DNA from: Candidatus Nomurabacteria bacterium
Lineage (GTDB): Bacteria; Patescibacteriota; Minisyncoccia; Phycocordibacterales; UBA9973
Assembly (NCBI GenBank): GCA_023267435.1
Contig: JAHFNH010000004.1
Coordinates: 1,236-65,235 of the forward strand
Length of the DNA: 64,000 bases
Direction of reading: 5' to 3'
The notes below the pieces were generated by a model. It was given only the letters and a program-made list of their open reading frames with translations. It was not told where the DNA came from and searched no databases. Below, one piece after another: positions 6,701 through 33,564 of this stretch; position 1 is the stretch's first letter, and each line of letters begins with the position of its first letter. Position numbers and translations under genes: made by a program.

Positions 6701-9059
6701 CGTAGTATTAACTTTTGATCCAAGTACATTCTCTTTAACTATCTTAAATGGATTAATGTCTGTAGATAATACAAAATTTGTAACCAGTCTAGGTAAAGCT
6801 GAATTATTAAAGTTCTCTACTTTGTATGTACAAGGTAAGTCAGGAGTAGTTACACCAGTAACTATGAAAGCTGATTCAAATCTAGGAATAATAGACTTTA
6901 CATTTACTACAGCAGATACTTGTGGAGTTTCTGATACAGTTGCACCAGTTACAACACTTACAAATGTTCCTGCAGTTGTAGACGGACAAAATGGTTGGTT
7001 TATAACTTCACCGGTTGTCGGCACACTTACTTGTGCTGATCTTCCAGCAGACAAAACTTCTTCCGGTTGTAACCAGACATTCTACACTCTTGATAAAGAC
7101 AGTGAAGTTTCAGGAGTCGCTCCAATAGATTTCAAAATGTACGACGGTATTCATTCTGTCTCTTATTACTCAAATGATAAAGCTGGAAATACAGAAGTTG
7201 CTCAAAGTGCTTCTTTCTACATAGATTCAGTTGCTCCTTCAACCAATGTTACTTTGATTGACAAGGACGCAGATAAGTTTATCGAAGCTGTTCAGGTTGA
7301 TGCAAAAGACGAAACTTCAGGTGTTGCTTATATGAATTATGTAGTCAGCCTAGGTGGAGTTGATGTTTACAAATCTGATCTTATAAAAGGATCATCCATA
7401 GCTATAGATCTTTCTCTTTGGACTAAAGCAGGTAAATCAATAACCATTACTTATTTCGCAACAGACAATGCTGGTAATACATCTAAAGATCAAGCTGTTG
7501 TTGCAAATTACGATATTTGTCCAGGAGTAGCAGGTCAATATCAAGGTTGTGGTAATAAGAATCATGTTATATCAATCGTTCATAATGTTAATAAAATTGC
7601 AAAATATGATGACAACGATGAATATAAGGGTGATCGAGCAAATTGCGGAATTACTACAGGTAAAGATGGAAAGAAATCAGTTACCGCAGAATGCGACAAA
7701 AATGTTTCAGGTGTAGTTGTTAAAGCCTTCCCATTTACTGTTGCTCAGAATATATTAAAGCCGATTAATGGTTGGGACGAAAATAATGATGGACAGCCTC
7801 GCCAGACATCTCTTGCTGCTCTCTATGCTTCAGGAGCTGAATCAAACTCATGTACTACTATTTCAGGTTCATGTGACATGGGTCTTCCAGTAGGAAAAGG
7901 TGTAGGTCAATTTACTAAATTCATTGATGTTGCTTTGTATACAGTTAAAGATCCATCTTCTGGTAAGAAGATTGATCTTTATCAATCAAAGGTAAAGAAT
8001 TTCATGGGTAAAGACCACGAGGATAATAAATCTGTTAGAGAAAGAGATGATAATCACAAGAGTTACTATAATTGTGACTCAAGTAGTAAATATCCTAACT
8101 TCAGTTCTGATGACTTAAGTAGAGAAAAAGTTTGTCAACAAGAAATTAATGACATGCATGGTACAAACGATGATAGTACAAACATAAATACTATCGTTAC
8201 TAAGACTTTCCGTTTCTTGAATCTTGTAAGTAAGGATTCAAATGGTAAAGAAAAAGATGAACCTTCTACAGCTGGTATTAAGAAAAATTCAGGATCAGAA
8301 CTAGATGTTATTTATCCAGAATATACTATTTGGGACGGTACAACAGCTCTTTATCCTTTCATTATGACTTCAGATTCTGATTGGACTACAGACGTATGTC
8401 TCCAAGTTCCAACAGGATATCAGATCTCGGCTGTTTATGATCAGGAAGGAAATATTATCTCAACTGATCAATGTCAACAGACATTTATCTCTGGTGAAAC
8501 TAAGACAGTTCTATTTTCAGTTAGCGATGTTGGTTCACCTGAACCTGATTTCACATTTTCTCTTCAAACCAAGCACCAAGAAGTTCAAACAGGAGGTGGA
8601 ACAGCACTTCAGCAAACTAACCAGACTCTTAGTGTAGGTGGTATCAGACAAGCAACTAAGGATGTTGTAGACACTCAGATAGCTCAAGCTATTGCTCCTG
8701 TAATCGCTCAGATTAATGCTGACAAGCAGGCTCAATTAGCTCAAGCTGTTCAAGTTCTAGCACCAGCTGTTAGTCCAGTTGTTATTGCTCAAGCTCCTAC
8801 ACCAATCAGCCAGGTTCAAGCAATAAACTTCTCTAATAATTTGAAATTAGGAAAGAAGGGAACTGATGTTAAGGCTCTTCAAGAATACCTTAACAATCAC
8901 GGCTTTGAAGTTTCCAAGTCAGGTGCAGGTTCAAATGGTATGGAATCTGAATACTTTGGAGGAAAAACAAAAGCTGCAGTCGTTAAATTCCAAAAGGCCA
9001 ACAAGCTTCCAGCTACTGGCTTCGTAGGAACAATGACTCGCTCGCTATTGAATAGATAA
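3708..9059 (+). CDS. giant secreted cell-surface protein (1783 aa): signal peptide, NHL-type beta-propeller repeats, Big_5-like Ig domain, duplicated internal domain, C-terminal PG_binding_1-like domain
   Basis: N-terminal hydrophobic signal. Repeated GNIYV(A/T)D/NxIxKF blades typical of NHL repeats. The TPPTVASTSPTDLSTNVSINTTIEATFSEAID segment matches the Big_5 pattern. The C-terminal LKLGKKGTDVKALQEYLNNHGF...VVKFQKANKLPATGFVG matches the peptidoglycan-binding domain pattern. Confidence 0.75.
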   Translation: MFKKIFVSSFIIVALTVGAFGISHSVAAAQTSLWQVAQQQVGAGASSDALVSATKNLATKHDIKIPEWSWNLSGKFDVRKLSLSFLKSIASLASFGKSNVAQVVPTTPTYTYQYSFGSAGLGNGQLRYTQNLTSDSDGNIYVADAYYNRPRIQKFDQNGTFLLGWGGYGTGDTQFVDISSLTFFKGQIYVSEVNVDDIKVFDTSGNFVRKIALSVSGERQYFVAKIALDSRGNIYVLSNNTTNVVYKFTNSGTYVSSFPVENPNSANALQGITVDSNNNIYVTGYNFIREFDLNGTLVKSFNVSSLFGFYGITVDLSGYAFVGDNSYQQVDEFDPSGNYLASFKNPSGAAIYGVTRIGNGNIYAADFPSQVDVFIPSTPSTIPPIITINDPLYPTVVSTGQQMVFATAFTNASGADMGTCSFISGDGSMVPTYIAKDNNQNDVLAANYTYLKDGTFSALFECVSPLAGTISNTPTSIIASTLDTTPPTVASTSPTDLSTNVSINTTIEATFSEAIDWKTANSQNVVLLDPNGNQVEATLSSNSSIVGVLSPSVPLNYNTTYTVIIKRNFKDLVTGGVVAGLTDLAGNEISADFVWSFTTEANPVSVTIGAVLPTDTTVNTATVFTASVTNPTGVDLGSCYFYVGIKSVGNIPATYDVKAGQVSATYTYDTAGVYNTQFSCNGSLISVSGIPTDVTVTSTVPSPCSITMDKANPDFATSLGTISFGGDVLVSSNPNLLFSSDNGVKNAWNSKYDLNLNSPTVYMFDKATGATLQLTNAAYDAKTPSFTFDKPAVNVLLSKAAGTMSYKFDNGGTITFDGGALVTFAGLEASFDGGTTWVTSYKTDPYPKTFIVRDPKTLTTTDITNVLLDSKAGAFSFSIAPVCVVPPPPCSTTTTLNKANPDFATSLGTISFGGDVLVSSNPNLVMSVDNSLWEGKLDLNLVAKTNIVYLWDKQTGATLQLTNAAYDAKTPSFSFDKLPTTTVVELSKMNTTYTASNGVVLTFDPSTFSLTILNGLMSVDNTKFVTSLGKAELLKFSTLYVQGKSGVVTPVTMKADSNLGIIDFTFTTADTCGVSDTVAPVTTLTNVPAVVDGQNGWFITSPVVGTLTCADLPADKTSSGCNQTFYTLDKDSEVSGVAPIDFKMYDGIHSVSYYSNDKAGNTEVAQSASFYIDSVAPSTNVTLIDKDADKFIEAVQVDAKDETSGVAYMNYVVSLGGVDVYKSDLIKGSSIAIDLSLWTKAGKSITITYFATDNAGNTSKDQAVVANYDICPGVAGQYQGCGNKNHVISIVHNVNKIAKYDDNDEYKGDRANCGITTGKDGKKSVTAECDKNVSGVVVKAFPFTVAQNILKPINGWDENNDGQPRQTSLAALYASGAESNSCTTISGSCDMGLPVGKGVGQFTKFIDVALYTVKDPSSGKKIDLYQSKVKNFMGKDHEDNKSVRERDDNHKSYYNCDSSSKYPNFSSDDLSREKVCQQEINDMHGTNDDSTNINTIVTKTFRFLNLVSKDSNGKEKDEPSTAGIKKNSGSELDVIYPEYTIWDGTTALYPFIMTSDSDWTTDVCLQVPTGYQISAVYDQEGNIISTDQCQQTFISGETKTVLFSVSDVGSPEPDFTFSLQTKHQEVQTGGGTALQQTNQTLSVGGIRQATKDVVDTQIAQAIAPVIAQINADKQAQLAQAVQVLAPAVSPVVIAQAPTPISQVQAINFSNNLKLGKKGTDVKALQEYLNNHGFEVSKSGAGSNGMESEYFGGKTKAAVVKFQKANKLPATGFVGTMTRSLLNR
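5833..5915 (+). repeat. intragenic repeat copy A (83 nt identical to 6397-6479)
   Basis: Exact nucleotide identity. Encodes KANPDFATSLGTISFGGDVLVSSNPNL. Confidence 0.9.
6397..6479 (+). repeat. intragenic repeat copy B (tandem domain duplication, ~564 nt periodicity)
   Basis: Exact identity to 5833-5915. A second shared block (caggagc.actcttcagttgaccaatgccgcttacgacgcaaaaactcctagctt) lies at 6010 and 6571. Confidence 0.9.
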
Positions 9060-19441: not shown

Positions 19442-19542
19442 GTACGAGTATCCTTATTGAAGTCTAAAAAGACTTATCAATAAGTGATCTTCAGTCACAG
19501 CTGAATACAGATATATGGTTGGCGGAGCAAAATCGCCTTACT

Positions 19543-20166
19543 ATGCAAAATAAAAAATTAATACGGTTTGTGGAGGCGGTTATTCTTATGCCTATGATGT
19601 CAGTATCAATGTCTTCTGGAAATGTTCCAAAAGGACCAGTGATTACTGAAACTCCCCAGGTTGTATTATCACAACAAATGAATAAAGGTTTTAATGGTCT
19701 TTTAGCTTTTAACCAAGCTGAAGATCAAAAAGCCGACAAAACTCTTGAAGCTCAAGCGAAAGCCATTGATGCATATTTCAAGGCTCATGATATGCCTTTA
19801 GAAGGCACAGGTATGAAAATGGCTGTTGAGGCTCAAAAGAACAATATTGATTGGCGTCTTTTGCCAGCTATTGCCGCTCGTGAGTCAACTGGTGGCAAGC
19901 ATGCTTGTAAGAAAGTAGCTCATAGTTTTATGGGTTGGGGTTCTTGTAAGATTAGCTTTAAATCAGACGAAGAGGCGATTGAAATCGTGGCAAATAATTT
20001 AGGAGGTAATAATCCAAACACTGATCAGCATTATGCTGGTAAAACCACAAAAGAAATTCTCCGTAAGTATAATTCCGTAATACCAAAATATGTCACTCAG
20101 GTTATAACCATAATGGATGAAATAGGTGATGAAACAATTAATGTAGACCAAAAAGCCCAGGCGTAG
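19543..20166 (+). CDS. hypothetical protein (possible cell-wall-acting enzyme)
   Basis: The ORF track starts at TTG 19519; the first ATG in frame is 19543. No confident family assignment. Confidence 0.4.
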   Translation: MQNKKLIRFVEAVILMPMMSVSMSSGNVPKGPVITETPQVVLSQQMNKGFNGLLAFNQAEDQKADKTLEAQAKAIDAYFKAHDMPLEGTGMKMAVEAQKNNIDWRLLPAIAARESTGGKHACKKVAHSFMGWGSCKISFKSDEEAIEIVANNLGGNNPNTDQHYAGKTTKEILRKYNSVIPKYVTQVITIMDEIGDETINVDQKAQA

Positions 20167-20188
20167 CCGCTCGGGCTTTTTGTTTTTT
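20154..20188 (+). terminator. Rho-independent terminator overlapping the stop codon
   Basis: agccc...gggct hairpin followed by ttttgtttttt. Confidence 0.55.
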
Positions 20189-20246: not shown

Positions 20247-21164
20247 ATGAAAAACAATAAAGGTTTTACGATGGTTGCGATAGCTCTGATTATGTTAGCT
20301 GTTTTTGTTGTGGGTGGCAGTGTTATTTATTTGATTACAAAAGGTTCAACACCTTCTTCACAAAATACAAACACATCAGTAAATAATTCTCCACAAGTGA
20401 ACCAGAACAGTGTTACAAATACAAATACACCTGTTCAAAATAATCCAGTTTCTAACAATCCAGCACCGACTGTCATAGGTAGTAATGCAGATATAAGTAA
20501 ACCTAAAACAGACTGTTTACCAACAACTACTCCTTCAATAACAGTTCTTTATCCAAATGGTGGAGAGGCATTTACTGTTAATCAAAAGATCATAATCAAG
20601 TGGTCGAGTTGTAATGTAAATAATGTAAATATTGCTTTACTAAGTGGAGGAAAAGATTTTGGAAATTTAACAATGACACCCATTTCTGCATCACCAGGTT
20701 CATTCCAATGGATGGCTTCGAATCCTGCTCAGGCTTTTACTCAATCAGGTACTAATAACTATCAGATTGGTATTACAAGTCAGTCACCTAATGTTCTGGT
20801 AAAAAGTAATACATTTACAATTCAACCTCAAGTTCAAACACAACCAATCACATTAATACAACCATTAGATCAAGTTGTGTGGACTGGCGGAAATCAATAC
20901 GATATAAGCTGGATTGCAGGTACAGGAAATGTAGCATTATCTGCTTGCAGTACAAACTATACAAATACAGGATATTCTCCTCAGCAATGCGTGCCTATCG
21001 TAAGCAACCTATCTTCTAGTGGTAGTTATAATTACAGTCTTCCTTCCAGTACCAGTTCGAATTCCGGTTTTGTAGAAATAAAAGCGACAGATTCAACAAG
21101 CACTTATGATAGTCATATTGTGAAAGTAAATAACTCTTCAATATTACCTTTAATAGGTGAGTAA
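20247..21164 (+). CDS. secreted pilin-like paralog 1 (prepilin-like N-terminus MKNNKGF...)
   Basis: Short basic leader ending in G then F plus a hydrophobic helix (class-III-signal-like, but no Glu at +5). Conserved DCLPTTTPS...PNGGEAFTVNQKIIIKWSSCN module shared with the next two genes. Confidence 0.55.
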   Translation: MKNNKGFTMVAIALIMLAVFVVGGSVIYLITKGSTPSSQNTNTSVNNSPQVNQNSVTNTNTPVQNNPVSNNPAPTVIGSNADISKPKTDCLPTTTPSITVLYPNGGEAFTVNQKIIIKWSSCNVNNVNIALLSGGKDFGNLTMTPISASPGSFQWMASNPAQAFTQSGTNNYQIGITSQSPNVLVKSNTFTIQPQVQTQPITLIQPLDQVVWTGGNQYDISWIAGTGNVALSACSTNYTNTGYSPQQCVPIVSNLSSSGSYNYSLPSSTSSNSGFVEIKATDSTSTYDSHIVKVNNSSILPLIGE

Positions 21165-21176
21165 TAATTAATTTTT

Positions 21177-21782
21177 ATGAAAAAATATTCAAAAGGATTT
21201 AGTAGTATTACGCTCATTGTTTTAATTGTACTGGTAGTAGGTTTTTATTATTTTTCAACAATAAAAACGAATACAAATACGAACCAAGTAAATAAAAATA
21301 TTGTTACAAATAATTCTGTAAATAGTGCAGACAGTAATGCAGAAATAAATAAACCTAAAACAGGTTGTTTATCTTCAACAACTCCCTGGATTAAGATTTT
21401 GTCCCCAAACGGTGGAGAGATATATTCTGTTGGTCAGCAGATTACAGTAACCTGGACGAGTTGTAATATACCTTCGAATTCTCTAATTTCATTTCGTCTT
21501 TATTTTAACAATAGTAGTACTATACTTGAAAATTCACTCACAGGTCCTGGTCCTGGAAATGCTGTAAATAATGGAATAAAAAATATTATTATTCCTAATA
21601 TTACAAATAACCCAACACATGGTTTAAACATTATGTGGTCTGGATGGAGTTTAGGCGGGTCTTATTTTAAAATTAAAGCATTTGTAGTTGCACCTATTTC
21701 TGTTAATGGTACTATTGTTGGCACTCCTACTTCTTCTGGAATAGAGGATTTATCTGATAATACGTTTACAATAAATCCTTAA
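21177..21782 (+). CDS. secreted pilin-like paralog 2
   Basis: MKKYSKGFSSITLIV... N-terminus. Shares the KPKTGCLSSTTPWIKILSPNGGEIYSVGQQITVTWTSCN module. Confidence 0.55.
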   Translation: MKKYSKGFSSITLIVLIVLVVGFYYFSTIKTNTNTNQVNKNIVTNNSVNSADSNAEINKPKTGCLSSTTPWIKILSPNGGEIYSVGQQITVTWTSCNIPSNSLISFRLYFNNSSTILENSLTGPGPGNAVNNGIKNIIIPNITNNPTHGLNIMWSGWSLGGSYFKIKAFVVAPISVNGTIVGTPTSSGIEDLSDNTFTINP

Positions 21783-21875
21783 TTAATTTATCTAGATTGT
21801 CTTTTTAATAGGTGAGTAAGATTATAAGTGTGTTATTACTAAATAAGTTATTAATAGTTAATAAAAAAATTTTAA

Positions 21876-22946
21876 ATGAAAAACAATAAAGGTTTTATAG
21901 GTATGGGTTTGATATTAGCAATTATTGCTGTATTAATTATCGGTGGCTGTGCGTATTACGTAGGAAAGAATTCGAATACTACTTCTAAAAATACAAATGT
22001 AAATAATTCTCAACAGGAAAATCAAAATACTGTTACAAATACTCCTGTGCAAAATAATTCAACATCTGTTGTTGTGGGTGGTGCACAAATTAATACTAGC
22101 ACTTCTTCATCACAGCCATGTGCGAAAGGTGATACACCTTGGATAAAAGTTATTTCTCCAAATGGTGGGGAAACATTTACTGCTGGTCAACAAATTACTG
22201 TAAAGTGGACGAGTTGTAATGTAACACCACCAGTTAGTCTTATGCTTGTTAAACACGATTCATCTGTAGCATATACACAAAGTGAAGGACAAAGTGATTA
22301 TGCAGGGTTTACTCTTGGTGGTTTTAATTCTAACACTGGAACACCAGATGATGGTATTCAACAAATAACATTACCTAGTAGTTTAAATACTAATTTAACA
22401 TTAGGTCAGCATTATTTTATTATAGTTGCTGGTCAAGACAATCCATCTTTCGGACCAGGATTTAGTCCAAGAGATTTGTCGGACAATTTATTTACAATAA
22501 ATAATTCAATAAAGGATGAACCGAAGATAAAACCATTTGGAGGAGTTTCTGCTCTTGCACCAGTGGTTATTTATAAGCCAAAGAACAATAATTATGCTAA
22601 TTTGGTTTGGGTTAATTTAGATTCTAGTAAAACACAAATAACATCTTTTCCTGGTCCAGGTGATGTAAGAAGTCCAGTCTCTTTACATGGTGGTTATTTT
22701 GTTAAGAGTTTTGGTGGAAAGGATTCAGTTCCTTTAAATTTAATAATTTCAACATATGCCACGTATACTTCCACTTTATCTCTTGCACAGATGTTTAATT
22801 TAATTTTGGATATGAATCCAATACTTGAATTATATGATTGTACAAATAGTTACCACCAAGATTTTATTGCAGAGGATGTTAAGGCTTCTAATTTAAATAC
22901 CTATATTGATAACAATCAACTATCTGTTAAGTGTGTACAATATTAA
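21876..22946 (+). CDS. secreted pilin-like paralog 3
   Basis: First 24 nt identical to paralog 1 (atgaaaaacaataaaggtttta). Shares the PWIKVISPNGGETFTAGQQITVKWTSCN module. Confidence 0.55.
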   Translation: MKNNKGFIGMGLILAIIAVLIIGGCAYYVGKNSNTTSKNTNVNNSQQENQNTVTNTPVQNNSTSVVVGGAQINTSTSSSQPCAKGDTPWIKVISPNGGETFTAGQQITVKWTSCNVTPPVSLMLVKHDSSVAYTQSEGQSDYAGFTLGGFNSNTGTPDDGIQQITLPSSLNTNLTLGQHYFIIVAGQDNPSFGPGFSPRDLSDNLFTINNSIKDEPKIKPFGGVSALAPVVIYKPKNNNYANLVWVNLDSSKTQITSFPGPGDVRSPVSLHGGYFVKSFGGKDSVPLNLIISTYATYTSTLSLAQMFNLILDMNPILELYDCTNSYHQDFIAEDVKASNLNTYIDNNQLSVKCVQY

Positions 22947-22996
22947 CTAATCAAATTAAAAAACCACCCGTATGGGTGGTTTTTTAATTTGATTAG
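22947..22996. terminator. bidirectional Rho-independent terminator (perfect 50-nt palindrome)
   Basis: ctaatcaaattaaaaaaccaccc-gta-tgggtggttttttaatttgattag between convergent genes. Confidence 0.8.
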
Positions 22997-23004
22997 TATT
23001 TAGA

Positions 23005-24093
23005 TTATTCTAAATACATCAATGTCATTTTGTGATCTTTTGGTTCGAACAATGTGATCTGGAAGTTGTAGGTCTTACCAAGTTCCAATTTTTCACGAAG
23101 TTTTGCTTCAGATCCAAAGGTTGAGTTGTGGACAAGTCCAGCTACTCCTTCTTTGATTGAAACTAATGCACCGTGCTTGTTGTATTTAATAACTACGCCT
23201 TTGATGATATCGCCCTTCTTTAATTTGTCTTCGTACTCTTTCCATGGGTTTTCTTTTAGAGCTTTGATAGAAAGGGAAATCTTACCATCTTTTATTTCAA
23301 TAACCTTAGCACGAACAGGATCGCCAACTTTGAATAGGGTACGAGGATCTTCTACGAGACCCCAATCAAGTTCAGAGATGTGTACGAGACCTTCTAGACC
23401 ATCTTCAAGTTTCAAGAATACTCCGAAGTCGACAAGACCTGCGACTGTACAATCTAGATCATCACCAACATTGTATTTACTTAGGATTTCTTTTTTTTCT
23501 TCAGGATTGTTGTCTTTTTCAGAGAAGATTAGTTTACCTTCTTTTGGAAGAGTAGAAATAATCATAACTGAAATTTTCTGGCCAATGAGTTTCTTTAATT
23601 CTTTTAATATTTTATCTTTATCAGAATCTAGAACGCGAGGGTAGTGATCTGCTTTAAGCTGGGAAGCTGGTAGGAATCCTTGGATACCTTGCCATTCCAA
23701 AATAAGTCCGCCTTTGTTTGCATCCTTGATTTCCAAATCCATGACAGTCTTAGCCTTGATTGCTTTCTCGGCTTCGCTCCATGTGAGGGCTTGTTTAGCT
23801 TCCTTTAGAGAAAGTTCTACATAACCGTCTTCGTTTTCTATGTCAACAACTTTTGCTTTGATAATATCACCAAGATTTATTTTCTTGATTATATCTTTTG
23901 CGTTGATAAATTCTCGTCCGTAAATAATACCTGTTCTGAAAGGTGACAAATCAACAAAGACTGATGATTTTTGGATAAGAATGACAGGACCTTCCACAAG
24001 AGAATCGACTTCCAATTTACTGGAACTTCGATCGACGATAGATTTTAAAACTGGGTTTTCTATTACTTCTACGATTGCTTCTTCTTTTTTCAT
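23005..24093 (-). CDS. rpsA: 30S ribosomal protein S1 (four S1 domains)
   Basis: Repeated S1-domain signatures (GDIIKAKVVDIE..., GDDLDCTVAGLVDFGVFLKL, VGDPVRAKVIEIKDGKISLSIK). Confidence 0.85.
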   Translation of the reverse strand: MKKEEAIVEVIENPVLKSIVDRSSSKLEVDSLVEGPVILIQKSSVFVDLSPFRTGIIYGREFINAKDIIKKINLGDIIKAKVVDIENEDGYVELSLKEAKQALTWSEAEKAIKAKTVMDLEIKDANKGGLILEWQGIQGFLPASQLKADHYPRVLDSDKDKILKELKKLIGQKISVMIISTLPKEGKLIFSEKDNNPEEKKEILSKYNVGDDLDCTVAGLVDFGVFLKLEDGLEGLVHISELDWGLVEDPRTLFKVGDPVRAKVIEIKDGKISLSIKALKENPWKEYEDKLKKGDIIKGVVIKYNKHGALVSIKEGVAGLVHNSTFGSEAKLREKLELGKTYNFQITLFEPKDHKMTLMYLE

Positions 24094-24625: not shown

Positions 24626-24979
24626 TTAAGAGGTATATTTTTTAATTTTCTCCAATGATTTATCTAAGTCTTTTTCTATTTCTGAATTCCAAAATCGGAT
24701 GACTTGGATATTCTTTGATTTTAAATATTCCGTGCGTGCTTTATCGTACTCTTTATTTTCTTTATGAATAGAGCCGTCTAATTCAATGGCGAGTTTTATT
24801 TTTGGTGCATAAAAATCAAGAATGAATTTCTCTATTGGGTGTTGCCTGCGAAATTTTACTCTGAGTTTATTGTTTCGTAGTTCTTTCCAAAGAATTTTTT
24901 CTGCTTCTGTTTCTTCTTTTCTGAGATAACGAGCTTTTGTTATTGATTGTAATTTTGGCATAAGATAATTATACCTCAC
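24626..24979 (-). CDS. DUF559 (Vsr/restriction-endonuclease-like) domain protein
   Basis: FRRQHPIEKFILDFYAPKIKLAIELDGSIHKENKEYDKARTEYLKSKNIQVIRFWNSEI matches the DUF559 endonuclease-domain pattern. Confidence 0.7.
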   Translation of the reverse strand: MRYNYLMPKLQSITKARYLRKEETEAEKILWKELRNNKLRVKFRRQHPIEKFILDFYAPKIKLAIELDGSIHKENKEYDKARTEYLKSKNIQVIRFWNSEIEKDLDKSLEKIKKYTS

Positions 24980-29014: not shown

Positions 29015-30301
29015 ATGAAAGGAAATTTTCAAATAATACTTTTAATAGTTTTTGTTGCCGCAGCTGTTTTAGGACTTTTGGTGTTTTCAGGAGCGATACC
29101 ACTTGGTAAAAATAGCAACACAGCCGGTGGGCAGGGCACTGTCGTTTTATGGGGCACTGTTGGTCAGCAATTTATATCCAAACCCCTCGATATTCTAAAT
29201 CGTGCCAATCCAAGCTTTGTTGTGAAATATGTTCAAAAAGATCCAGCGACATTTGATCAGGATTTACTCGAAGCTTTGGCTTCAGGCAACGGTCCTGATT
29301 TATTTTTCTTGCCTGATAATTTAGCATTTCATTATAGTAATAGAATATCTGTCATACCATACGCCAGTTTTTCTTTGGCATCTTTTAAGAATTATTTTGC
29401 CGGAGCGGGCGAGGTTTTTTTAACCTCAAAAGGCATTCTTGCTTTTCCTATGTTTATTGATCCGATGGTTATGTATTACAACCGAAGCATTTTAGATTCA
29501 AACAACATAGTCAATCCTCCTGCATCTTGGGATGAATTACAAAATATGGCTCAAACTTTAACTCAAAAAGATCAGGGTAAAAAAATCATCCAGAGCGCGG
29601 TTGCTATGGGACAATTTTCAAATATAACTCATGCTAAAGACATTATCTCCACTCTTTTCATGCAAGCTGGTAATCCTATAACAACTGAAAAAAACGGTTT
29701 GTTTTCTTCGGCTTTGAAAGATACAGCTGATTTAGGTCCCGTTCTTAAGTTCTACACAGATTTTTCCGATCCATTGAATCCTGTTTATTCTTGGAATAAA
29801 TCTTTACCTCCATCCATAAATGTTTTTAGTTCTGGAGATCTGGCTTTTTATTTCGGCTATGCGAGCGAGTTACCATCTTTGATAAATCGCAATCCAAATG
29901 AAAACTTCTTGGCTGCACCTATGCCTCAATTAAAAAATTCAAATACAAAAATCACATCTGCCAGAGTCACCGGTATCGCTATTTCATCTTTTTCAAAAAA
30001 TCCGACAGCTGCTTTCACTGTGATGGGTCTTATCGCGACAGGAGATTTTGCTAAAGATCTCGCTAATGCACTTTCTACCGTACCAGCGAGACGCGATCTT
30101 TTAGCAACGAAACCAACCGATGCTTATTTCCCGATTTTTTATTCCTCCGCTCTTTTTGCTAAAAGTTGGATCGATCCATCTCCGTCAGATACTGATGATA
30201 TTTTTAGAGGAATGGTTGATAAAGTTCTTTCCAACGATATGTCACCTAGCAATGTAGTCAGCGACGCATCTGCTAAATTAGGACTTTTATTAGCTAGATA
30301 A
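29015..30301 (+). CDS. membrane-anchored extracellular solute-binding-like protein (SBP family 1-like)
   Basis: N-terminal TM anchor. PDLFFLPDN, FIDPMVMYYNRSIL and PASWDELQ resemble MalE-type SBP motifs. Confidence 0.4.
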   Translation: MKGNFQIILLIVFVAAAVLGLLVFSGAIPLGKNSNTAGGQGTVVLWGTVGQQFISKPLDILNRANPSFVVKYVQKDPATFDQDLLEALASGNGPDLFFLPDNLAFHYSNRISVIPYASFSLASFKNYFAGAGEVFLTSKGILAFPMFIDPMVMYYNRSILDSNNIVNPPASWDELQNMAQTLTQKDQGKKIIQSAVAMGQFSNITHAKDIISTLFMQAGNPITTEKNGLFSSALKDTADLGPVLKFYTDFSDPLNPVYSWNKSLPPSINVFSSGDLAFYFGYASELPSLINRNPNENFLAAPMPQLKNSNTKITSARVTGIAISSFSKNPTAAFTVMGLIATGDFAKDLANALSTVPARRDLLATKPTDAYFPIFYSSALFAKSWIDPSPSDTDDIFRGMVDKVLSNDMSPSNVVSDASAKLGLLLAR

Positions 30302-30305
30302 AATT

Positions 30306-31799
30306 GTGCCAAACATGATTTTGGTAAATCAAATGAAAAATTTAAAGAAAAAAATATTATTAATAAGCACACTTTCAATATTATTTTTTTCTTTTTTGTT
30401 TACTAATTATGCTTTTGCAAATGTTGCACTTACTAAAACATTTTCTGGATCAACCAAGGTTACAATAAAAGCAACAGGTCTTTTTTCTGGTGGAGATTAC
30501 AGTTTGGCTGTTCATAGTTCTTCTGCTTCAACTCCCGCATACAATAAAACTTTACAGCTTAAAGCAGACAGCGCTGGCATGGTTCAAGGGGATTTTATCG
30601 ACTTAGCTCCAAATGGTAGCTACTCAGCTTTCGTTATGATATATGACTCTACCAGCAGTAATGTTCAACCAGCGCTCGCTACGATTGATTTCACAGCACC
30701 AATAGCCGGTTCGGGTTCTGTTGTCATCACCACTTCATCTATAACGCAAACCTCTGCCATATTTAGGGTTTCAGGTCTTATTCCTCACAATCAATATACG
30801 ATAGGGGTTTATAATACCGATTCATCTACGCCTGCATATAACCAGCAAGTACATTTTACCGGAGCTAGCAATGACAGAATAATTTCTATTCCAAATTTAA
30901 CTCCTGATGGTCACTATACGGCTTACATAACTCCTTTTGATAATACCAGTAATGTGCAACCCAGAATTGCTACGGTTGATTTCGCGACGCTCACAAGCAA
31001 TATCACCGCTCCGAAAATTACTGCGAGTGTTTCAGAAATAACTTCAACCAGTGCAAAGATTACCGTAAACATAGAACAATTTGATCCATCTTTATTTCCA
31101 ATCAGACTCGGTTTGGCTTCCGGCAAGACCGGCGGAACAGTTTCTGTTAGATCTTTTAATACAGAAAATTTAATTCCTACTGACATTCCTCATAGCGTGG
31201 ATATCACTTTAACTTTAGATCCAGGTTCTGATTATTCATTTAGAATTATAAAATTAGGTAGCAATGCTCCTTACACAGATATTCAGACTTTCTCAACTCC
31301 AGCCACAGTCGTTACTACTCCGCCAAACAATACTCCACCAGACAATACCACTACGACAAATACTTACACTCCTCCGGCTATTTATGAACCAGTTGGCGGT
31401 CTAGTGCCATGCGGTACTGCTCGCTATAAAGCAGGAGACGTCGCTCCTAATGGAAAGGTAATTCCAAAAGATAGGCCTACAAATGATCAAGCACTTTTAG
31501 ATACTTATGCATATTTAGGACAAGTAAAAAATCCTTGTGATTTTAATTATGCTCTTACTTTGATAAATAATGTTGTTAAGTTTATTCTTTTCGGTTTAGC
31601 CATACCTCTTGCTGCGATTATGTTCATGTATGCCGGATTTGAAATGGTGACAGCTGGCGGAAGCGAGGAAAAGGCAGGGAAGGCAAGGAGAATATTCACC
31701 AACGCTGTCATAGGTTTAGCACTCGCAGCTGCTGCATGGCTTATCGTAGAGTTAATATTAACAACACTCGGGTACGACGGGTCTTGGATTGGATTTTAA
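30306..31799 (+). CDS. fusion protein: signal peptide + three ~95-aa Ig/FN3-like repeats + Pro/Thr linker + C-terminal two-helix TrbC/VirB2-like (T4SS-pilin-like) domain
   Basis: Repeats each carry ...TPAYN...NVQP(A/R)(L/I)ATxDF. The C-terminal VVKFILFGLAIPLAAIMFMYAGFEMVTAGGSEEKAGKARRIFTNAVIGLALAAAAWLIVELIL aligns with the four small proteins downstream. Confidence 0.55.
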   Translation: MPNMILVNQMKNLKKKILLISTLSILFFSFLFTNYAFANVALTKTFSGSTKVTIKATGLFSGGDYSLAVHSSSASTPAYNKTLQLKADSAGMVQGDFIDLAPNGSYSAFVMIYDSTSSNVQPALATIDFTAPIAGSGSVVITTSSITQTSAIFRVSGLIPHNQYTIGVYNTDSSTPAYNQQVHFTGASNDRIISIPNLTPDGHYTAYITPFDNTSNVQPRIATVDFATLTSNITAPKITASVSEITSTSAKITVNIEQFDPSLFPIRLGLASGKTGGTVSVRSFNTENLIPTDIPHSVDITLTLDPGSDYSFRIIKLGSNAPYTDIQTFSTPATVVTTPPNNTPPDNTTTTNTYTPPAIYEPVGGLVPCGTARYKAGDVAPNGKVIPKDRPTNDQALLDTYAYLGQVKNPCDFNYALTLINNVVKFILFGLAIPLAAIMFMYAGFEMVTAGGSEEKAGKARRIFTNAVIGLALAAAAWLIVELILTTLGYDGSWIGF

Positions 31800-32180
31800 A
31801 TGATGTATAATATAGGAATGAATAAAAAACTTTCGAAATTAATGCTTTTGGCTGTTGTGTTTTTAATGCCAGTTATTTCTTTTGCCGATGTCATAGGTGG
31901 TGCACCTGCTGATCTTTCAGGTAAAATAGTGAATCCTATAAGCTCTAGCACTTTAAATGATTTTATACAACTAATACTTAAAGGTGCCATAAAAATCGGC
32001 ATACCGATCATAGCATTAGCCATCATTTACTGTGGTTTTCTTTTTGTGAAAGCTCGTGGTAATCCGGGAGAAATAGAAGTGGCTAAAAAATCTTTGACTT
32101 ATACTATTATCGGAGCAGCGATACTTCTAGGCGCATGGGCTATCGCTCAGCTCGTGGCTAATACAATTTTAGCACTTTAA
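31800..32180 (+). CDS. TrbC/VirB2-like (T4SS-pilin-like) small protein, paralog 1
   Basis: Signal peptide (…VISFA), two hydrophobic helices separated by KARGNPGEIEVAKKS. 126 aa. Confidence 0.5.
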   Translation: MMYNIGMNKKLSKLMLLAVVFLMPVISFADVIGGAPADLSGKIVNPISSSTLNDFIQLILKGAIKIGIPIIALAIIYCGFLFVKARGNPGEIEVAKKSLTYTIIGAAILLGAWAIAQLVANTILAL

Positions 32181-32211
32181 TTTTTATTAATTTTAAACAC
32201 TATTTAAATAC

Positions 32212-32649
32212 ATGAAAAATTTTAAAAAATTTATTTACTCACTTTTAATATTATCTATTTTTATTTTACCAGCAATTTCTTTGGCTCAATATACAGGTGG
32301 TCCAGGTGGTGGCAGTGCTTCTTCAAATGTAGTCAGTTCTTCTTGTTCCTTTCCAGCCAGTCCCACATTTGGAACTTTTGTAGATTTTATTACTTGCAAT
32401 ATTAATAAATCAATTCTTCCTCTTTTGTTTACTTTAGCTTTTGCAGCTTTTGTCTGGGGAATAGTGCAGTATGTCATTCTAGGTGCTGAAGAAGAGGCGA
32501 AAAGGGAAAAAGGCAGGCAGTTTATGATTTGGGGTATTATCGCTTTGGCCGTGATGATCTCAGTTTGGGGTATTGTTAATATATTCACTAATACTTTCGG
32601 TATAAAAAACACCAGTGTTCCCATTATTCCACAGCTTCCGACGCACTAG
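32212..32649 (+). CDS. TrbC/VirB2-like small protein, paralog 2
   Basis: Signal (…AISLAQ). Helix-loop-helix with GAEEEAKREKGRQFMIWGIIALAVMISVWGIVNIFTNTFGI. Confidence 0.5.
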   Translation: MKNFKKFIYSLLILSIFILPAISLAQYTGGPGGGSASSNVVSSSCSFPASPTFGTFVDFITCNINKSILPLLFTLAFAAFVWGIVQYVILGAEEEAKREKGRQFMIWGIIALAVMISVWGIVNIFTNTFGIKNTSVPIIPQLPTH

Positions 32650-32670
32650 TGTTTGTTTCCAAGGGTTTTA

Positions 32671-32679
32671 TGTTATAAT
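32671..32679 (+). promoter_or_regulatory. extended -10 promoter (TGtTATAAT) for the 32787 pilin-like gene
   Basis: Perfect extended -10. The predicted TSS places the HR hairpin in the 5' UTR. Confidence 0.45.
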
Positions 32680-32725
32680 TAAGTCACCTATAAATATTTA
32701 GGAAATTATTATTAACAGGTCGTTT

Positions 32726-32758
32726 TTCCGCCTCTACGGCGGATCGCCGATGAGGCGA
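32726..32758. repeat. HR hairpin repeat copy 2 (ttccgcctctacggcggatcgccgatgaggcga) in the 5' UTR
   Basis: Stem gcctc/gaggc with inner cggcg-gat-cgccg. Lies 28 nt upstream of the ATG at 32787. Confidence 0.7.
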
Positions 32759-32786
32759 TATTATTAATTAGGTTTTATAAAATTAT

Positions 32787-33182
32787 ATGAAAAAGAAATT
32801 CGCTTCATTAGTCGGTTTAGGTCTAGTTATGTCAGCTCCATTATTAGCTTTCGCTCAAAGTCAGCTTCAAACTACTTGTAGTAATGCGACAGGAACAATC
32901 CAGGGAATAATTTGCGATATCAGTAAAATTCTAAATACTGTTATCCCAGTTATCATCGTCTTGGGTGTTGTTTATTTCGTTTGGGGTGTTGTTACTTATG
33001 TTATCTCCAGTGAAGAGGAAGCAAAAGCAGCTGGTAAAAACAGAATGATTTGGGGAATCATCGGTCTTGTTGTTATTGTATCAATGTGGGGCTTGGTAAA
33101 TATTGTTGTTAATACTTTCGGATTACAGAGTTCTTCCATCCAAGTAAACGTCCCTTGTATTACCGGCACACCTGGCTGTTAA
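32787..33182 (+). CDS. TrbC/VirB2-like small protein, paralog 3
   Basis: Signal (…LLAFAQ). SSEEEAKAAGKNRMIWGIIGLVVIVSMWGLVNIVVNTFGL. Confidence 0.5.
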   Translation: MKKKFASLVGLGLVMSAPLLAFAQSQLQTTCSNATGTIQGIICDISKILNTVIPVIIVLGVVYFVWGVVTYVISSEEEAKAAGKNRMIWGIIGLVVIVSMWGLVNIVVNTFGLQSSSIQVNVPCITGTPGC

Positions 33183-33186
33183 TCTT

Positions 33187-33564
33187 ATGAATTTTTTATT
33201 TACCAATGTCGCTTATGCAGCCAATGCAGCGAGTGGTGAAAGTTTGGATAAGTTCATTCAGAATGTAAACAAGCTCATCATCAATCCGCTCATCATGTTG
33301 TTGTTCGCTTTGGCTCTAGTTTATTTTGTTTATGGACTTGTTCAGTTTATTGCAAATGCTGAAAACGAAGAGGAAAGATCAACAGGCAAGAAGCATATGA
33401 TTTGGGGGGTGATTGGTTTGACTATCATGCTGGGAGTTTGGACTCTTATAGCAATCATTACGAATACTTTAGGTATATCTTCATCAGATATAAATCCTCA
33501 AACAGGTACGGTAGATCTAAAGAATTATACTCCACCTCCAGGAAGCGGATTGTTAAATTTTTAA
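33187..33564 (+). CDS. TrbC/VirB2-like small protein, paralog 4
   Basis: ANAENEEERSTGKKHMIWGVIGLTIMLGVWTLIAIITNTLGI, same topology. Confidence 0.5.
   Translation: MNFLFTNVAYAANAASGESLDKFIQNVNKLIINPLIMLLFALALVYFVYGLVQFIANAENEEERSTGKKHMIWGVIGLTIMLGVWTLIAIITNTLGISSSDINPQTGTVDLKNYTPPPGSGLLNF

What the first reader, a model, noticed from the sequence alone, without database searches (positions are those of the whole stretch)
20247..22946. Three tandem diversifying paralogs with prepilin-like N-termini and a fossil 3' end
Three adjacent genes begin with short basic leaders ending in Gly-Phe followed by a hydrophobic helix (MKNNKG|FTMVAIAL…, MKKYSKG|FSSITLIV…, MKNNKG|FIGMGLIL…). This resembles class III (type IV prepilin) signals but lacks the usually invariant Glu+5. 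They share a Cys-bracketed module (…C…PNGGE.FT.GQ.I.V.WTSCN…) but otherwise diverge strongly. Genes 1 and 3 share their first 24 nt exactly. The 3' end of gene 1 including its stop codon (tttaataggtgagtaa, 21149-21164) recurs as a relic in the spacer after gene 2 (21804-21819). Together these point to recent duplication or recombination, i.e. a surface-protein cassette system under diversifying selection.
Basis: seen in the sequence. Interest (0 to 1): 0.6.

Follow-up and report, generated by a model that had tools for sequence, protein, structure and literature searches.

The report
Variable surface-protein islet, pilin-like signal
Three neighbouring genes of an ultra-small (CPR/Paceibacteria-type) bacterium encode cell-surface proteins that share a strongly conserved, pilin-like but glutamate-less N-terminal signal. 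This signal is unannotated yet heads over a thousand protein clusters in that lineage, and the locus gains and loses such genes between relatives.

Summary
Three co-directional ORFs (20247-21164, 21177-21782, 21876-22946) each have a short basic leader ending in Gly|Phe, then 22-24 hydrophobic residues, a disordered N/Q/T-rich stalk, and a Cys-bracketed Ig-like beta-sandwich. g1 and g3 share 22 starting nt, not 24. The 16-nt relic is real and extends to about 22 nt against a relative's allele.

The N-terminus belongs to a lineage-wide module, M-K-[YN]-N-K-G|F…VGG.AY(F/Y).GK. It is absent from Pfam and NCBIfam. It matches 1281 representative clusters, always at residue 1, on varied extracytoplasmic domains in Paceibacteria/Nomurabacteria MAGs. 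It aligns in register with genuine CPR pilin signals but never has Glu+5, has no N_methyl hit and no pilin fold. It is therefore pilin-like in form, not a pilin. PilD cleavage is inferred, not shown.

In relatives the same lysozyme-like→rpsA interval holds 0, 1, 2 or 3 such genes. However, the three genes are old paralogs and their Ig domains are under purifying selection (dN/dS ≈ 0.2). I found no cassette-switching machinery. The locus is best read as a gain/loss and domain-shuffling islet, not a diversifying cassette system.

The parts
20149..20182 (+). Hairpin plus T-run ending the upstream lysozyme-like gene; left border of the islet
   Evidence: Inverted repeat I10, followed by TTTTTGTTTTTT.
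20247..21164 (+). g1, 305 aa. Leader MKNNKG (20247-20264); hydrophobic helix FTMVAIALIMLAVFVVGGSVIYLI (20265-20336); N/Q/T/P-rich stalk (about 20337-20501); Ig-like domain 1 (about 20502-20834); second beta domain (about 20835-21161).
   Evidence: Orthologue P0002 (L008) is 71% identical by BLAST (77% over aligned codons).
21177..21782 (+). g2, 201 aa. Leader MKKYSKG (21177-21197); hydrophobic helix (21198-21263); stalk; a single Ig-like domain (about 21354-21779).
   Evidence: AF2 model: helix 8-29, disordered 30-60, beta-sandwich 71-200. Foldseek returns generic Ig-like/CBM hits only.
21796..21819 (+). Fossil 3' end ('LSLIGE-stop', frame broken by a 2-nt insertion) of a g1-type gene, in the g2-g3 spacer
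   Evidence: Exact 16-mer repeat. Extended match to the L008 gene end.
21876..22946 (+). g3, 356 aa. Leader MKNNKG (21876-21893); hydrophobic helix FIGMGLILAIIAVLIIGGCAYYVG (21894-21965); stalk; Ig-like domain (22113-22511); C-terminal domain of unknown fold (22512-22943).
   Evidence: AF2: helix 9-24, residues 33-75 disordered, residues 80-212 at pLDDT 91-96 except two blocks at 74-82, C-terminal part below 50. Weak Kre9_KNH hit, E=0.0047. The C-terminal domain recurs in P0218.
22946..22997 (.). Bidirectional terminator hairpin shared with the convergent rpsA (S1) gene; right border of the islet. Its core is conserved in relatives.
   Evidence: (I1).
19519..20166 (+). Conserved left flank: lysozyme-like 215-aa gene, used as anchor for the synteny comparison
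   Evidence: Weak Glucosaminidase/SLT hits. 56-81% identical in 15+ related loci.
23005..24093 (-). Conserved right flank: ribosomal protein S1 (rpsA)
   Evidence: Four S1 domains. 86-97% identical in relatives.

Best explanation
The region is a small variable islet in a Paceibacteria/Nomurabacteria-type (CPR) chromosome, wedged between a lysozyme-like gene and rpsA. It encodes three paralogous cell-surface proteins.

Each protein is built from four kinds of part:
1. A lineage-specific N-terminal module of class III (prepilin-like) form: a 6-7-residue basic leader ending in invariant Gly, then Phe+1, then 22-24 hydrophobic residues ending in GG-x-(A)-Y-(Y/F)-x-x-K.
2. A disordered Asn/Gln/Thr/Pro-rich stalk of 40-60 residues.
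3. One Kre9/KNH-type Ig-like beta-sandwich with a conserved Cys pair.
4. Optional extra C-terminal domains.

Proposed mechanism:
- The module inserts N-in/C-out (inferred from the positive-inside rule and helix length).
- The leader is probably removed at G|F by the prepilin peptidase that CPR bacteria generally carry. This step is inferred; I put it at about 45%.
- The mature protein stays tethered in the membrane by its N-terminal helix. The stalk carries the Ig-like domain through the wall for binding or adhesion (inferred).
- It is not a filament-forming pilin.

The locus evolves by gain and loss of whole genes, domain shuffling, stalk indels and exchange of 5' ends among paralogs. It does not evolve by positive selection on the fold or by programmed cassette switching (shown).
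For: Architecture:
- ORFs and alignment.
- AF2 gives a helix, a disordered linker and a confident beta-sandwich.
- Foldseek returns only Ig-like/CBM/FN3-like folds and no pilin.
- Kre9_KNH is found in 23 of 126 relatives.

The N-terminal module is a family-wide unit:
- The leader is exactly 6 aa in 96 of 111 sequences.
- N-3 is present in 99 of 111, K-2 in 106 of 111 and F+1 in 103 of 111. G-1 is 111 of 111, but only by construction: the sequences were anchored on a [KRQN]-G motif.
- G17 and G18, Y21 and K25 are conserved. Position +5 is never Glu.
- A 40-aa profile finds 1281 representative clusters at E<=1e-3 and 183 at E<=1e-10, nearly all at residues 1-39.
- The passenger domains are diverse and extracytoplasmic: Kre9_KNH, PsbP_2, Germane, TIG, SpaA, PD40, chagasin.
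- Named hits are all Paceibacterota, Nomurabacteria or Patescibacteria.

Likeness to class III signals:
- hhalign against 110 genuine CPR pilin N-termini gives probability 92.8 and score 30.2 with K-G-F in register. None of 150 column permutations reaches that score (mean 8.8, sd 2.6).
- CPR pilins use [KR]G|F leaders. One Paceibacterota pilin (P0282) has the leader MKKYSKG|F, identical to that of g2.
- The definition of a class III signal is met except for Glu5 (PMC8179133).
- PilD is widespread in CPR (PMC6744442). pilBCDMT and arrays of genes with pilin signal peptides have been reported in Paceibacteria (PMC9763046).

Not an ordinary Sec signal:
- Other exported proteins in the window, and family members P0083, P0102 and P0109, have hydrophobic regions of roughly 13-20 residues followed by an AXA site.

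Locus variability:
- The interval holds 0 genes in 9 relatives, 1 in L004-L008 and L042, 2 in L038, and 3 here. L040 and L047 carry different cargo plus an IS200-like ORF.
- There is a rearrangement scar.
- Modules are shared in different combinations in P0005, P0185 and P0218.
- dN/dS is about 0.2 in the Ig domains.
Against: - Glu+5 is absent in all members.
- There is no PF07963 or TIGR02532 hit even at E<=1.
- No PilD or other T4P gene lies in the 64-kb window.
- No genuine pilin ORF lies within ±10 kb of 24 family loci.
- No T4P family recurs among 149 neighbouring proteins.
- The leader is far more conserved than the leaders of genuine pilins, which range from 4 to 31 aa. This may point to a different recognition partner.
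- GG-x-A|Y fits the SPase I -3/-1 rule in about 80% of members.
- The pilin set used for hhalign was retrieved with a query carrying the MKYNKGF leader, so the leader's share of that score is biased.
- Cleavage, localisation and ligand are all untested.
Confidence: 0.6

Rival explanations
1. Uncleaved signal anchor. The module is simply a conserved N-terminal transmembrane helix (type II topology) inserted by Sec/YidC. Neither a prepilin peptidase nor the pilus machinery is involved. The K-G-F motif and the GG-AY motif serve membrane positioning or helix-helix packing.
For: - The hydrophobic stretch of 22-24 residues has transmembrane length, with an aromatic belt and Lys at its outer end.
- AF2 predicts a single helix.
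- There is no Glu5, no N_methyl match and no T4P linkage.
- Parcubacteria are reported to have many TM proteins, few recognisable signal peptides and no SRP (PMC4508563).
Against: - A plain anchor does not need Gly-1 and Phe+1 to be so strongly conserved, a fixed 6-residue leader, or conserved Asn-3/Lys-2.
- The module aligns in register with pilin signals beyond permutation controls.
Confidence: 0.3
2. Conventional Sec signal peptide cut by signal peptidase I after the conserved GG-x-A (…VGGVA|YF…), which would release a soluble or wall-associated protein.
For: - Gly at -3 is present in 98 of 111 sequences. A small residue (A, G or S) is at -1 in 91 of 111. A helix-breaking Gly sits at -4.
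- The total length of about 26 residues is typical of monoderm signal peptides.
- g3 has GCA|Y.
Against: - g1 (GGSV|I) and g2 (VGFY|Y) lack an allowed -1 residue.
- Hydrophobicity and conservation continue 4-7 residues past the putative site (Y-F-A-G-K-S-S).
- The c-region is not polar.
- Ordinary Sec signals in the same genome and family look different.
Confidence: 0.08
3. Genuine modular or minor type IV pilins. After PilD cleavage the proteins are loaded by the T4P machinery and displayed on or at the tip of pili.
For: - Modular pilins with grafted adhesive domains are widespread, including in CPR (PMC8179133).
- Some minor pseudopilins such as GspK lack Glu5 (own knowledge).
- JGI labelled one member (P0044) as PilV.
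- There is in-register similarity to pilin signals.
Against: - There is no pilin module. The helix stops at about residue 29, and in most family members (65 of 111) a Pro follows at mature position +29. A 40-60-residue disordered linker comes next, and nothing packs against the helix.
- Foldseek finds no pilin structures.
- Glu5 is absent in all 111 sequences.
- The genes are never next to T4P genes in the loci examined.
Confidence: 0.07
4. Programmed antigenic or phase-variation cassette system, with expression-site and silent copies exchanged by recombination.
For: - Tandem paralogs share identical 5' ends, and there is a rearrangement scar.
- The 5' end of the L008 orthologue resembles g3 rather than g1.
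Against: - All three are complete ORFs with their own start codons.
- Identity is only 32-46%.
- There are no long direct or inverted repeats and no recombinase or invertase nearby.
- The Ig domains are under purifying selection.
Confidence: 0.03

Closest known systems
Bacterial class III (type IV prepilin) signal peptides, e.g. P. aeruginosa PilA MKAQKG|FTLIEL and CPR pilins (PF07963/IPR012902)
   Same: - A short basic leader ending in Lys-Gly, then Phe+1, then about 21-24 hydrophobic residues.
- An in-register profile match.
- The same leader length, 6 aa, as PilA (own knowledge).
   Different: - No Glu+5 and no HMM match.
- A different, separately conserved hydrophobic consensus (…LLIVLGVLAVGGVAYFAGK).
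- The leader itself is highly conserved.
- No alpha1-C/beta-sheet pilin domain.
Archaeal non-pilin proteins with class III signals (Sulfolobus sugar-binding proteins of the 'bindosome', PibD/FlaK substrates)
   Same: A class III-type signal heads ordinary extracytoplasmic domains rather than pilins. Lys-2 and Gly-1 are conserved, and Glu5 is not required (own knowledge).
   Different: - The organism is a bacterium.
- There is no PF04021 or TIGR02537 match. Only a sub-threshold TIGR04205 hit was found for g2 (E=0.0056).
- No assembly system was identified.
Modular type IV pilins (S. sanguinis PilB/PilC; PMC8179133)
   Same: An N-terminal pilin-type signal is followed by a grafted binding domain. 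The architectures are very diverse and include CPR examples.
   Different: Modular pilins keep a complete pilin module and Glu5. Here only the signal/helix part is present, joined to the domain by a long disordered stalk.
Lineage-specific conserved signal motifs such as YSIRK-G/S and KxYKxGKxW of Firmicutes, and the conserved signal peptides of Mycoplasma variable lipoprotein families
   Same: A strongly conserved N-terminal export signal is shared by many otherwise unrelated or rapidly changing surface proteins within one lineage.
   Different: Those are cleaved by SPase I or II and have shorter hydrophobic cores. There is no sequence match (no NCBIfam hit).
Kre9/KNH-like N-terminal Ig-like domain (PF10342)
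   Same: The motif (S/T)PNGGE…G…I.W is shared, and the fold is a beta-sandwich.
   Different: The window proteins score below the Pfam gathering threshold. A bracketing Cys pair is conserved in this family.

Membership tests
Type IV pilin / class III signal peptide (PF07963, TIGR02532, IPR012902) | Hydrophilic leader ending in Gly or Ala | tested here: met
   The leaders are MKNNKG, MKKYSKG and MKNNKG. G-1 is present in 111 of 111 relatives (by construction, since the sequences were anchored on the K-G motif), and K-2 in 106 of 111.
Type IV pilin / class III signal peptide (PF07963, TIGR02532, IPR012902) | About 21 predominantly hydrophobic residues directly after the cleavage site | tested here: met
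   There are 22-24 hydrophobic residues, predicted as a helix.
Type IV pilin / class III signal peptide (PF07963, TIGR02532, IPR012902) | Glu at mature position +5 | tested here: not met
   Position +5 is V, A, G, L or I and never E in 111 sequences. None of the top 150 representatives has it.
Type IV pilin / class III signal peptide (PF07963, TIGR02532, IPR012902) | Match to the N-terminal methylation-motif HMMs | tested here: not met
   There is no PF07963 or TIGR02532 hit at E<=1 for g1-g3. All 120 genuine CPR pilins carry PF07963.
Type IV pilin / class III signal peptide (PF07963, TIGR02532, IPR012902) | Pilin fold: alpha1 of about 50 residues whose C-terminal half packs on a beta-sheet | tested here: not met
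   The helix ends at residue 24-29 and is followed by a linker with pLDDT below 50. The globular part is an Ig-like sandwich, and Foldseek returns no pilin.
Type IV pilin / class III signal peptide (PF07963, TIGR02532, IPR012902) | Cleavage and N-methylation by prepilin peptidase PilD | not testable with these tools
   This needs proteomics or a heterologous processing assay.
Type IV pilin / class III signal peptide (PF07963, TIGR02532, IPR012902) | Prepilin peptidase encoded in the genome | tested here: inconclusive
   None was found among all ORFs of at least 100 aa in the window. The rest of the genome is not available. PilD is reported as widespread in CPR (PMC6744442, PMC9763046).
Kre9/KNH-like Ig-like domain (PF10342) | HMM score above the gathering threshold (24.6 bits) | tested here: not met
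   g3 scores 18.1 bits (E=0.0047). g1 and g2 give no hit. 23 of 126 relatives match at E<=1e-3.
Kre9/KNH-like Ig-like domain (PF10342) | Beta-sandwich (Ig-like) fold | tested here: met
   AF2 gives pLDDT 91-96 over most of g3 residues 80-212, with two blocks at 74-82. Foldseek returns Ig, FN3 and CBM matches.
Sec/SPase I signal peptide | Short hydrophobic region (about 7-15 residues), polar c-region, small residues at -3 and -1 | tested here: inconclusive
   GG-x-A|Y fits the -3/-1 rule in g3 and in about 80% of relatives, but not in g1 or g2. The hydrophobic stretch is 22-24 residues and continues past the putative site. SignalP was not available.
Antigenic-variation cassette systems (pilE/pilS, vls and Mycoplasma vsp types) | Silent partial copies, high-identity recombination blocks or a site-specific recombinase | tested here: not met
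   There are three complete ORFs at 32-46% identity. The only exact repeats are 22 nt and 16 nt. No recombinase lies nearby.

The most novel reading that the evidence does not exclude
The MK(Y/N)NKG|F…VGG-AY module may be a previously undescribed, Paceibacteria-specific class III-type sorting signal. It would be processed by the prepilin peptidase and would tether, or hand to a type-IV-filament-like machinery, over a thousand clusters of non-pilin surface proteins. That would make it a bacterial counterpart of the archaeal class III-signal surface proteins ('bindosome'). It could also explain why Parcubacteria appear poor in recognisable signal peptides.
Probability: 0.3. Interest if true: 0.75.

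Novelty: new variant of a known kind. Interest (0 to 1): 0.5.

Why it matters
CPR/Patescibacteria live attached to other microbes, and their surface proteins are the likely determinants of host recognition, yet most are annotated 'hypothetical'.

A conserved, easily recognised N-terminal module would give a simple handle for cataloguing the Paceibacteria surface proteome. It heads more than 1000 protein clusters and is absent from Pfam and NCBIfam.

If the module is cut by PilD, it extends the substrate range of bacterial prepilin peptidases to non-pilin, Glu5-less proteins. If it is not cut, it is a lineage-specific membrane anchor.

The lysozyme-like→rpsA islet is a compact, well-anchored marker locus. 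It could be used to follow surface-protein gain and loss in populations.

Tried and rejected
- Pfam and NCBIfam on g1-g3 gave only sub-threshold hits: Kre9_KNH, TIGR04205, FliL and similar. These are not informative beyond the Ig-like hint.
- The search for a PilD or T4P gene in the window found none. All ORFs of at least 100 aa were scanned.
It was repeated with the narrow A4, which biases the 24 loci towards the MKYNKGFAP subfamily.
- The regex search for genuine pilins (GF[TS]L[IV]E) near family genes found none.
- Pfam on 149 neighbouring proteins showed housekeeping genes and no recurrent partner.
- A sortase-type reading of the g1 C-terminus LPLIGE was rejected. There is no Thr, no downstream TM or charged tail, and the orthologue has LSLIGE.
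- A lipobox reading of g3 IGGC was rejected because it is not conserved in g1, g2 or relatives.
- The 16-mer as a Shine-Dalgarno element was rejected. The second copy lies 57 nt upstream of the g3 start.
- Literature searches for this motif or for SPIII signals in Patescibacteria found nothing specific.
- AF2 of the g3 C-terminal domain was low-confidence, so no fold was assigned.
Full report
**1. What is in the sequence**

Three + strand ORFs lie at 20247-21164 (g1, 305 aa), 21177-21782 (g2, 201 aa) and 21876-22946 (g3, 356 aa). A hairpin that ends the upstream gene (20149-20182) and a perfect 24-bp bidirectional terminator (22946-22997) bound them. No terminator-like site separates the three genes.

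They begin MKNNKG|FTMVAIALIMLAVFVVGGSVIYLI, MKKYSKG|FSSITLIVLIVLVVGFYYFSTI and MKNNKG|FIGMGLILAIIAVLIIGGCAYYVG. No other ORF in the window has a K-G-F start followed by a hydrophobic stretch.

The three proteins are 32-46% identical. They share the block C…(S/Y)PNGGE…Q.I…W.SCN.

The exact repeats are as follows:
- The 16-mer TTTAATAGGTGAGTAA occurs at the end of g1 and again 24 nt after the g2 stop.
- With up to two mismatches the 16-mer is expected 0.07 times in the window, and no shuffle gave two copies.

**2. Genomic setting**

The window carries uvrA, uvrC, ddl, secA, murD and murC. It also carries S1, gyrA, IF-2, ClpB, a Znu transporter and five tandem T4SS_pilin genes. It is 31-41% G+C.

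Named homologues of the three proteins come only from Candidatus Nomurabacteria, Parcubacteria, Paceibacterota and Patescibacteria MAGs. The organism is therefore a CPR bacterium of the Paceibacteria type.

No prepilin peptidase or other type IV pilus gene is present in the 64 kb.

**3. Architecture of the proteins**

AlphaFold2 results:
- g2 (10-sequence alignment): helix 8-29, a linker with pLDDT below 50 at residues 30-60, and a beta-sandwich at 71-200.
- g3 (72 sequences): helix 9-24, disordered 33-75, a beta-sandwich at 80-212 with pLDDT 91-96 except two blocks at 74-82, and an unresolved C-terminal 145 residues.

Foldseek against the PDB returns only generic Ig, FN3 and carbohydrate-binding-module sandwiches, plus an S-layer protein. 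It returns no pilin.

Pfam gives a sub-threshold Kre9_KNH hit for g3. The same family is found in 23 of 126 relatives.

Each protein therefore consists of an N-terminal helix, a low-complexity stalk, an Ig-like domain with a conserved Cys pair, and optional further domains.

**4. The N-terminus is a lineage-wide module**

A profile search with the N-terminus plus first domain returned 239 proteins. Many matched only through their first 40 or so residues, yet scored 88-100 bits.

Conservation in 111 non-identical N-termini:

| Feature | Count or state |
|---|---|
| Leader exactly six residues | 96 of 111 |
| Consensus | M-K-[YN]-N-K-G\|F-[AI]-[PG]-h-h-h-L-L-I-V-L-G-V-L-A-V-G-G-V-A-Y-F-A-G-K-S-S |
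| N-3 | 99 of 111 |
| K-2 | 106 of 111 |
| F+1 | 103 of 111 |
| Position +5 | never Glu |

A 40-residue profile of the module alone was searched against 1.84 billion representative proteins. It found 1281 clusters at E<=1e-3 and 183 at E<=1e-10, almost always at residues 1-39.

The domains behind the module are varied and all extracytoplasmic in character. They include Kre9_KNH, PsbP-like, Germane, TIG, SpaA-like, PD40 propeller, chagasin-type inhibitor and DPPIV_N.

Neither Pfam nor NCBIfam has a model for the module.

**5. Is it a class III signal?**

In form it is. The published definition is a hydrophilic leader ending in Gly or Ala, followed by about 21 hydrophobic residues that normally include Glu5 (PMC8179133). 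Everything but Glu5 is present.

I retrieved 120 genuine CPR pilins, all with PF07963. Their leaders are 4-31 residues long and end in [KR]-G|F-T-L-I-E. One Paceibacterota pilin, P0282, has exactly the leader of g2, MKKYSKG|F.

A profile-profile comparison of the module with 110 of these pilin N-termini gives probability 92.8% and score 30.2. K-G-F is in register, and the module's Gly12 aligns with pilin Gly14. The permutation controls were:
- None of 150 full column permutations reached the real score (mean 8.8, sd 2.6).
- Scrambling only the hydrophobic columns lowered the score to 19.0.
- Scrambling only the leader lowered it to 16.4.

One caveat applies. The pilin set was fetched with a query carrying the MKYNKGF leader, so the leader's contribution is inflated. 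The hydrophobic part's contribution is not affected.

Against membership:
- Glu5 is absent.
- There is no N_methyl or TIGR02532 hit at E<=1.
- There is no pilin fold.
- No genuine pilin ORF lies within ±10 kb of 24 family loci.
- No T4P family recurs among 149 neighbouring proteins.

I therefore do not file these proteins as pilins. Whether PilD cuts them is open. PilD is widespread in CPR (PMC6744442), and pilBCDMT has been described in Paceibacteria together with gene arrays bearing 'pilin signal peptides' (PMC9763046). The enzyme is thus plausibly present in trans.

**6. Rival readings of the N-terminus**

*Ordinary Sec signal peptide.* The conserved GG-x-A|Y fits the -3/-1 rule in g3 and in about 80% of relatives. 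Four points count against it:
- g1 and g2 do not fit the rule.
- The hydrophobic, conserved sequence runs on past that point.
- Other exported proteins of this same genome have hydrophobic regions of roughly 13-20 residues ending in AXA, for example …SHSVAAA|Q, …LLAFA|Q and …HANA|G.
- Family members P0083, P0102 and P0109 carry ordinary signals in place of the module.

*Uncleaved signal anchor.* This remains the main rival. It explains the helix length and the aromatic/Lys belt. It does not explain the strongly conserved Gly-Phe, the fixed leader length, or the conserved Asn-3/Lys-2.

**7. The locus across relatives**

Contigs carrying close homologues show the same order, murC then the lysozyme-like gene, followed by the islet and then the convergent rpsA. 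Flank identities are murC about 80%, the lysozyme-like gene about 80% and S1 94-97%.

A metagenome scan anchored on the lysozyme-like gene gave 15 more loci. The interval content is:

| Interval content | Loci |
|---|---|
| No gene | L034, L035, L037, L039, L041, L043, L044, L045, L046 |
| One module-bearing gene | L004-L008, L042 |
| Two module-bearing genes | L038 |
| Sec-signal PG-binding protein, small membrane protein, IS200-like ORF and one module gene | L040, L047 |
| Three module-bearing genes | this window |

Tandem sets also occur elsewhere: three genes in L022, and three within 18 kb in L010.

**8. How the array arose**

The three genes are not recent duplicates. Each Ig-like domain belongs to a different subtype, and g1 and g3 have closer relatives in other genomes:
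- The g3 domain is 71% identical to P0035.
- The g1 domain is 62% identical to P0038 and to the second domain of P0005.
- The second domain of g1 recurs directly behind the module in P0185.
- The C-terminal domain of g3 recurs directly behind the module in P0218.

So the domains are shuffled behind a constant N-terminal module.

The relic after g2 matches the end of the g1-type gene of L008 over 22 nt (ATTGTCTTT[TT]AATAGGTGAGTAA). It matches L008 better than the window's own g1, because it has TCT rather than CCT. It is a scar of a deletion or replacement that removed the second domain of a g1-type gene.

The identical 22-nt starts simply reflect the conserved leader. L008 has the same 22-mer and matches g3 for 31 nt.

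dN/dS (Nei-Gojobori) between g1 and its L008 orthologue:

| Region | dN/dS |
|---|---|
| g1, whole gene | 0.31 |
| g1, first Ig-like domain | 0.19 |
| g1, second domain | 0.20 |
| g1, first 33 codons | 1.26 |
| Lysozyme-like gene | 0.19 |
| murC | 0.11 |

The value above 1 for the first 33 codons arises because the L008 N-terminus resembles g3 rather than g1. That indicates exchange of 5' ends among paralogs rather than positive selection.

There are no silent cassettes, no long repeats and no recombinase in the window.

**9. Verdict**

The best-supported reading is a gain/loss and domain-shuffling islet. It encodes membrane-tethered, stalked, Ig-like surface proteins that carry a Paceibacteria-specific, class III-like, Glu5-less N-terminal module.

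What each part of the reading rests on:
- *Shown:* the architecture, the family-wide module and its likeness to pilin signals, the distinction from ordinary Sec signals, locus variability, and purifying selection on the fold.
- *Inferred:* topology, PilD cleavage (about 45%), surface display and an adhesive role.
- *Not supported:* pilin identity, recent duplication, diversifying selection and cassette switching.

Noticed in passing
window 30306-33564: Five consecutive genes carry the T4SS_pilin (PF18895/TrbC-VirB2-like) domain. The first is a 497-aa fusion. All have ordinary Sec signal peptides.
   Followed up: partly
window 29015-30301: A solute-binding protein (SBP_bac_1/8) starts MKGNFQIILLIVFVAAAVLGLLVF…GKNSNT. 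This is an N-terminal hydrophobic anchor rather than a lipobox, loosely like the module studied here.
   Followed up: no
L040 2302-4120 and L047 352-2170: In two relatives the same lysozyme-like→rpsA interval also carries three other ORFs ahead of the module gene. These are a Sec-signal PG-binding protein, a 116-aa membrane protein and a 222-aa ORF that I read as IS200/Y1-transposase-like from an HFHFIL motif (no family scan was run). This suggests the interval is an insertion hot spot.
   Followed up: partly
proteins P0334 and P0261: Two genuine CPR pilins have long leaders that themselves begin like the module (MNKKYNKGFTPL…LTG|FTLIELL; MNKKGFTPLEIL…LTG|FTLIELL). This may be a trace of an evolutionary link between the two kinds of N-terminus.
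   Followed up: no
window 24626-24979 (- strand): A DUF559 (very-short-patch-repair/restriction endonuclease-like) gene is inserted between rpsA and a metallo-beta-lactamase-fold gene.
   Followed up: no
window 3708-9059: A 1783-aa secreted protein has NHL/beta-propeller repeats, Big_5 and a C-terminal PG_binding_1 domain. It carries an ordinary Sec signal.
   Followed up: no
alignment A5 (126 module-bearing proteins): One member hits Pfam Arch_flagellin (PF01917) at E=1.5e-4, presumably through the N-terminal hydrophobic region. I did not identify which member.
   Followed up: no
window 19676-19698: The upstream lysozyme-like gene contains an internal …QQMNKGFNG… whose DNA resembles the start of g3 (83% over 23 nt, D14). 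No hydrophobic stretch follows it, so I judged it coincidental.
   Followed up: partly
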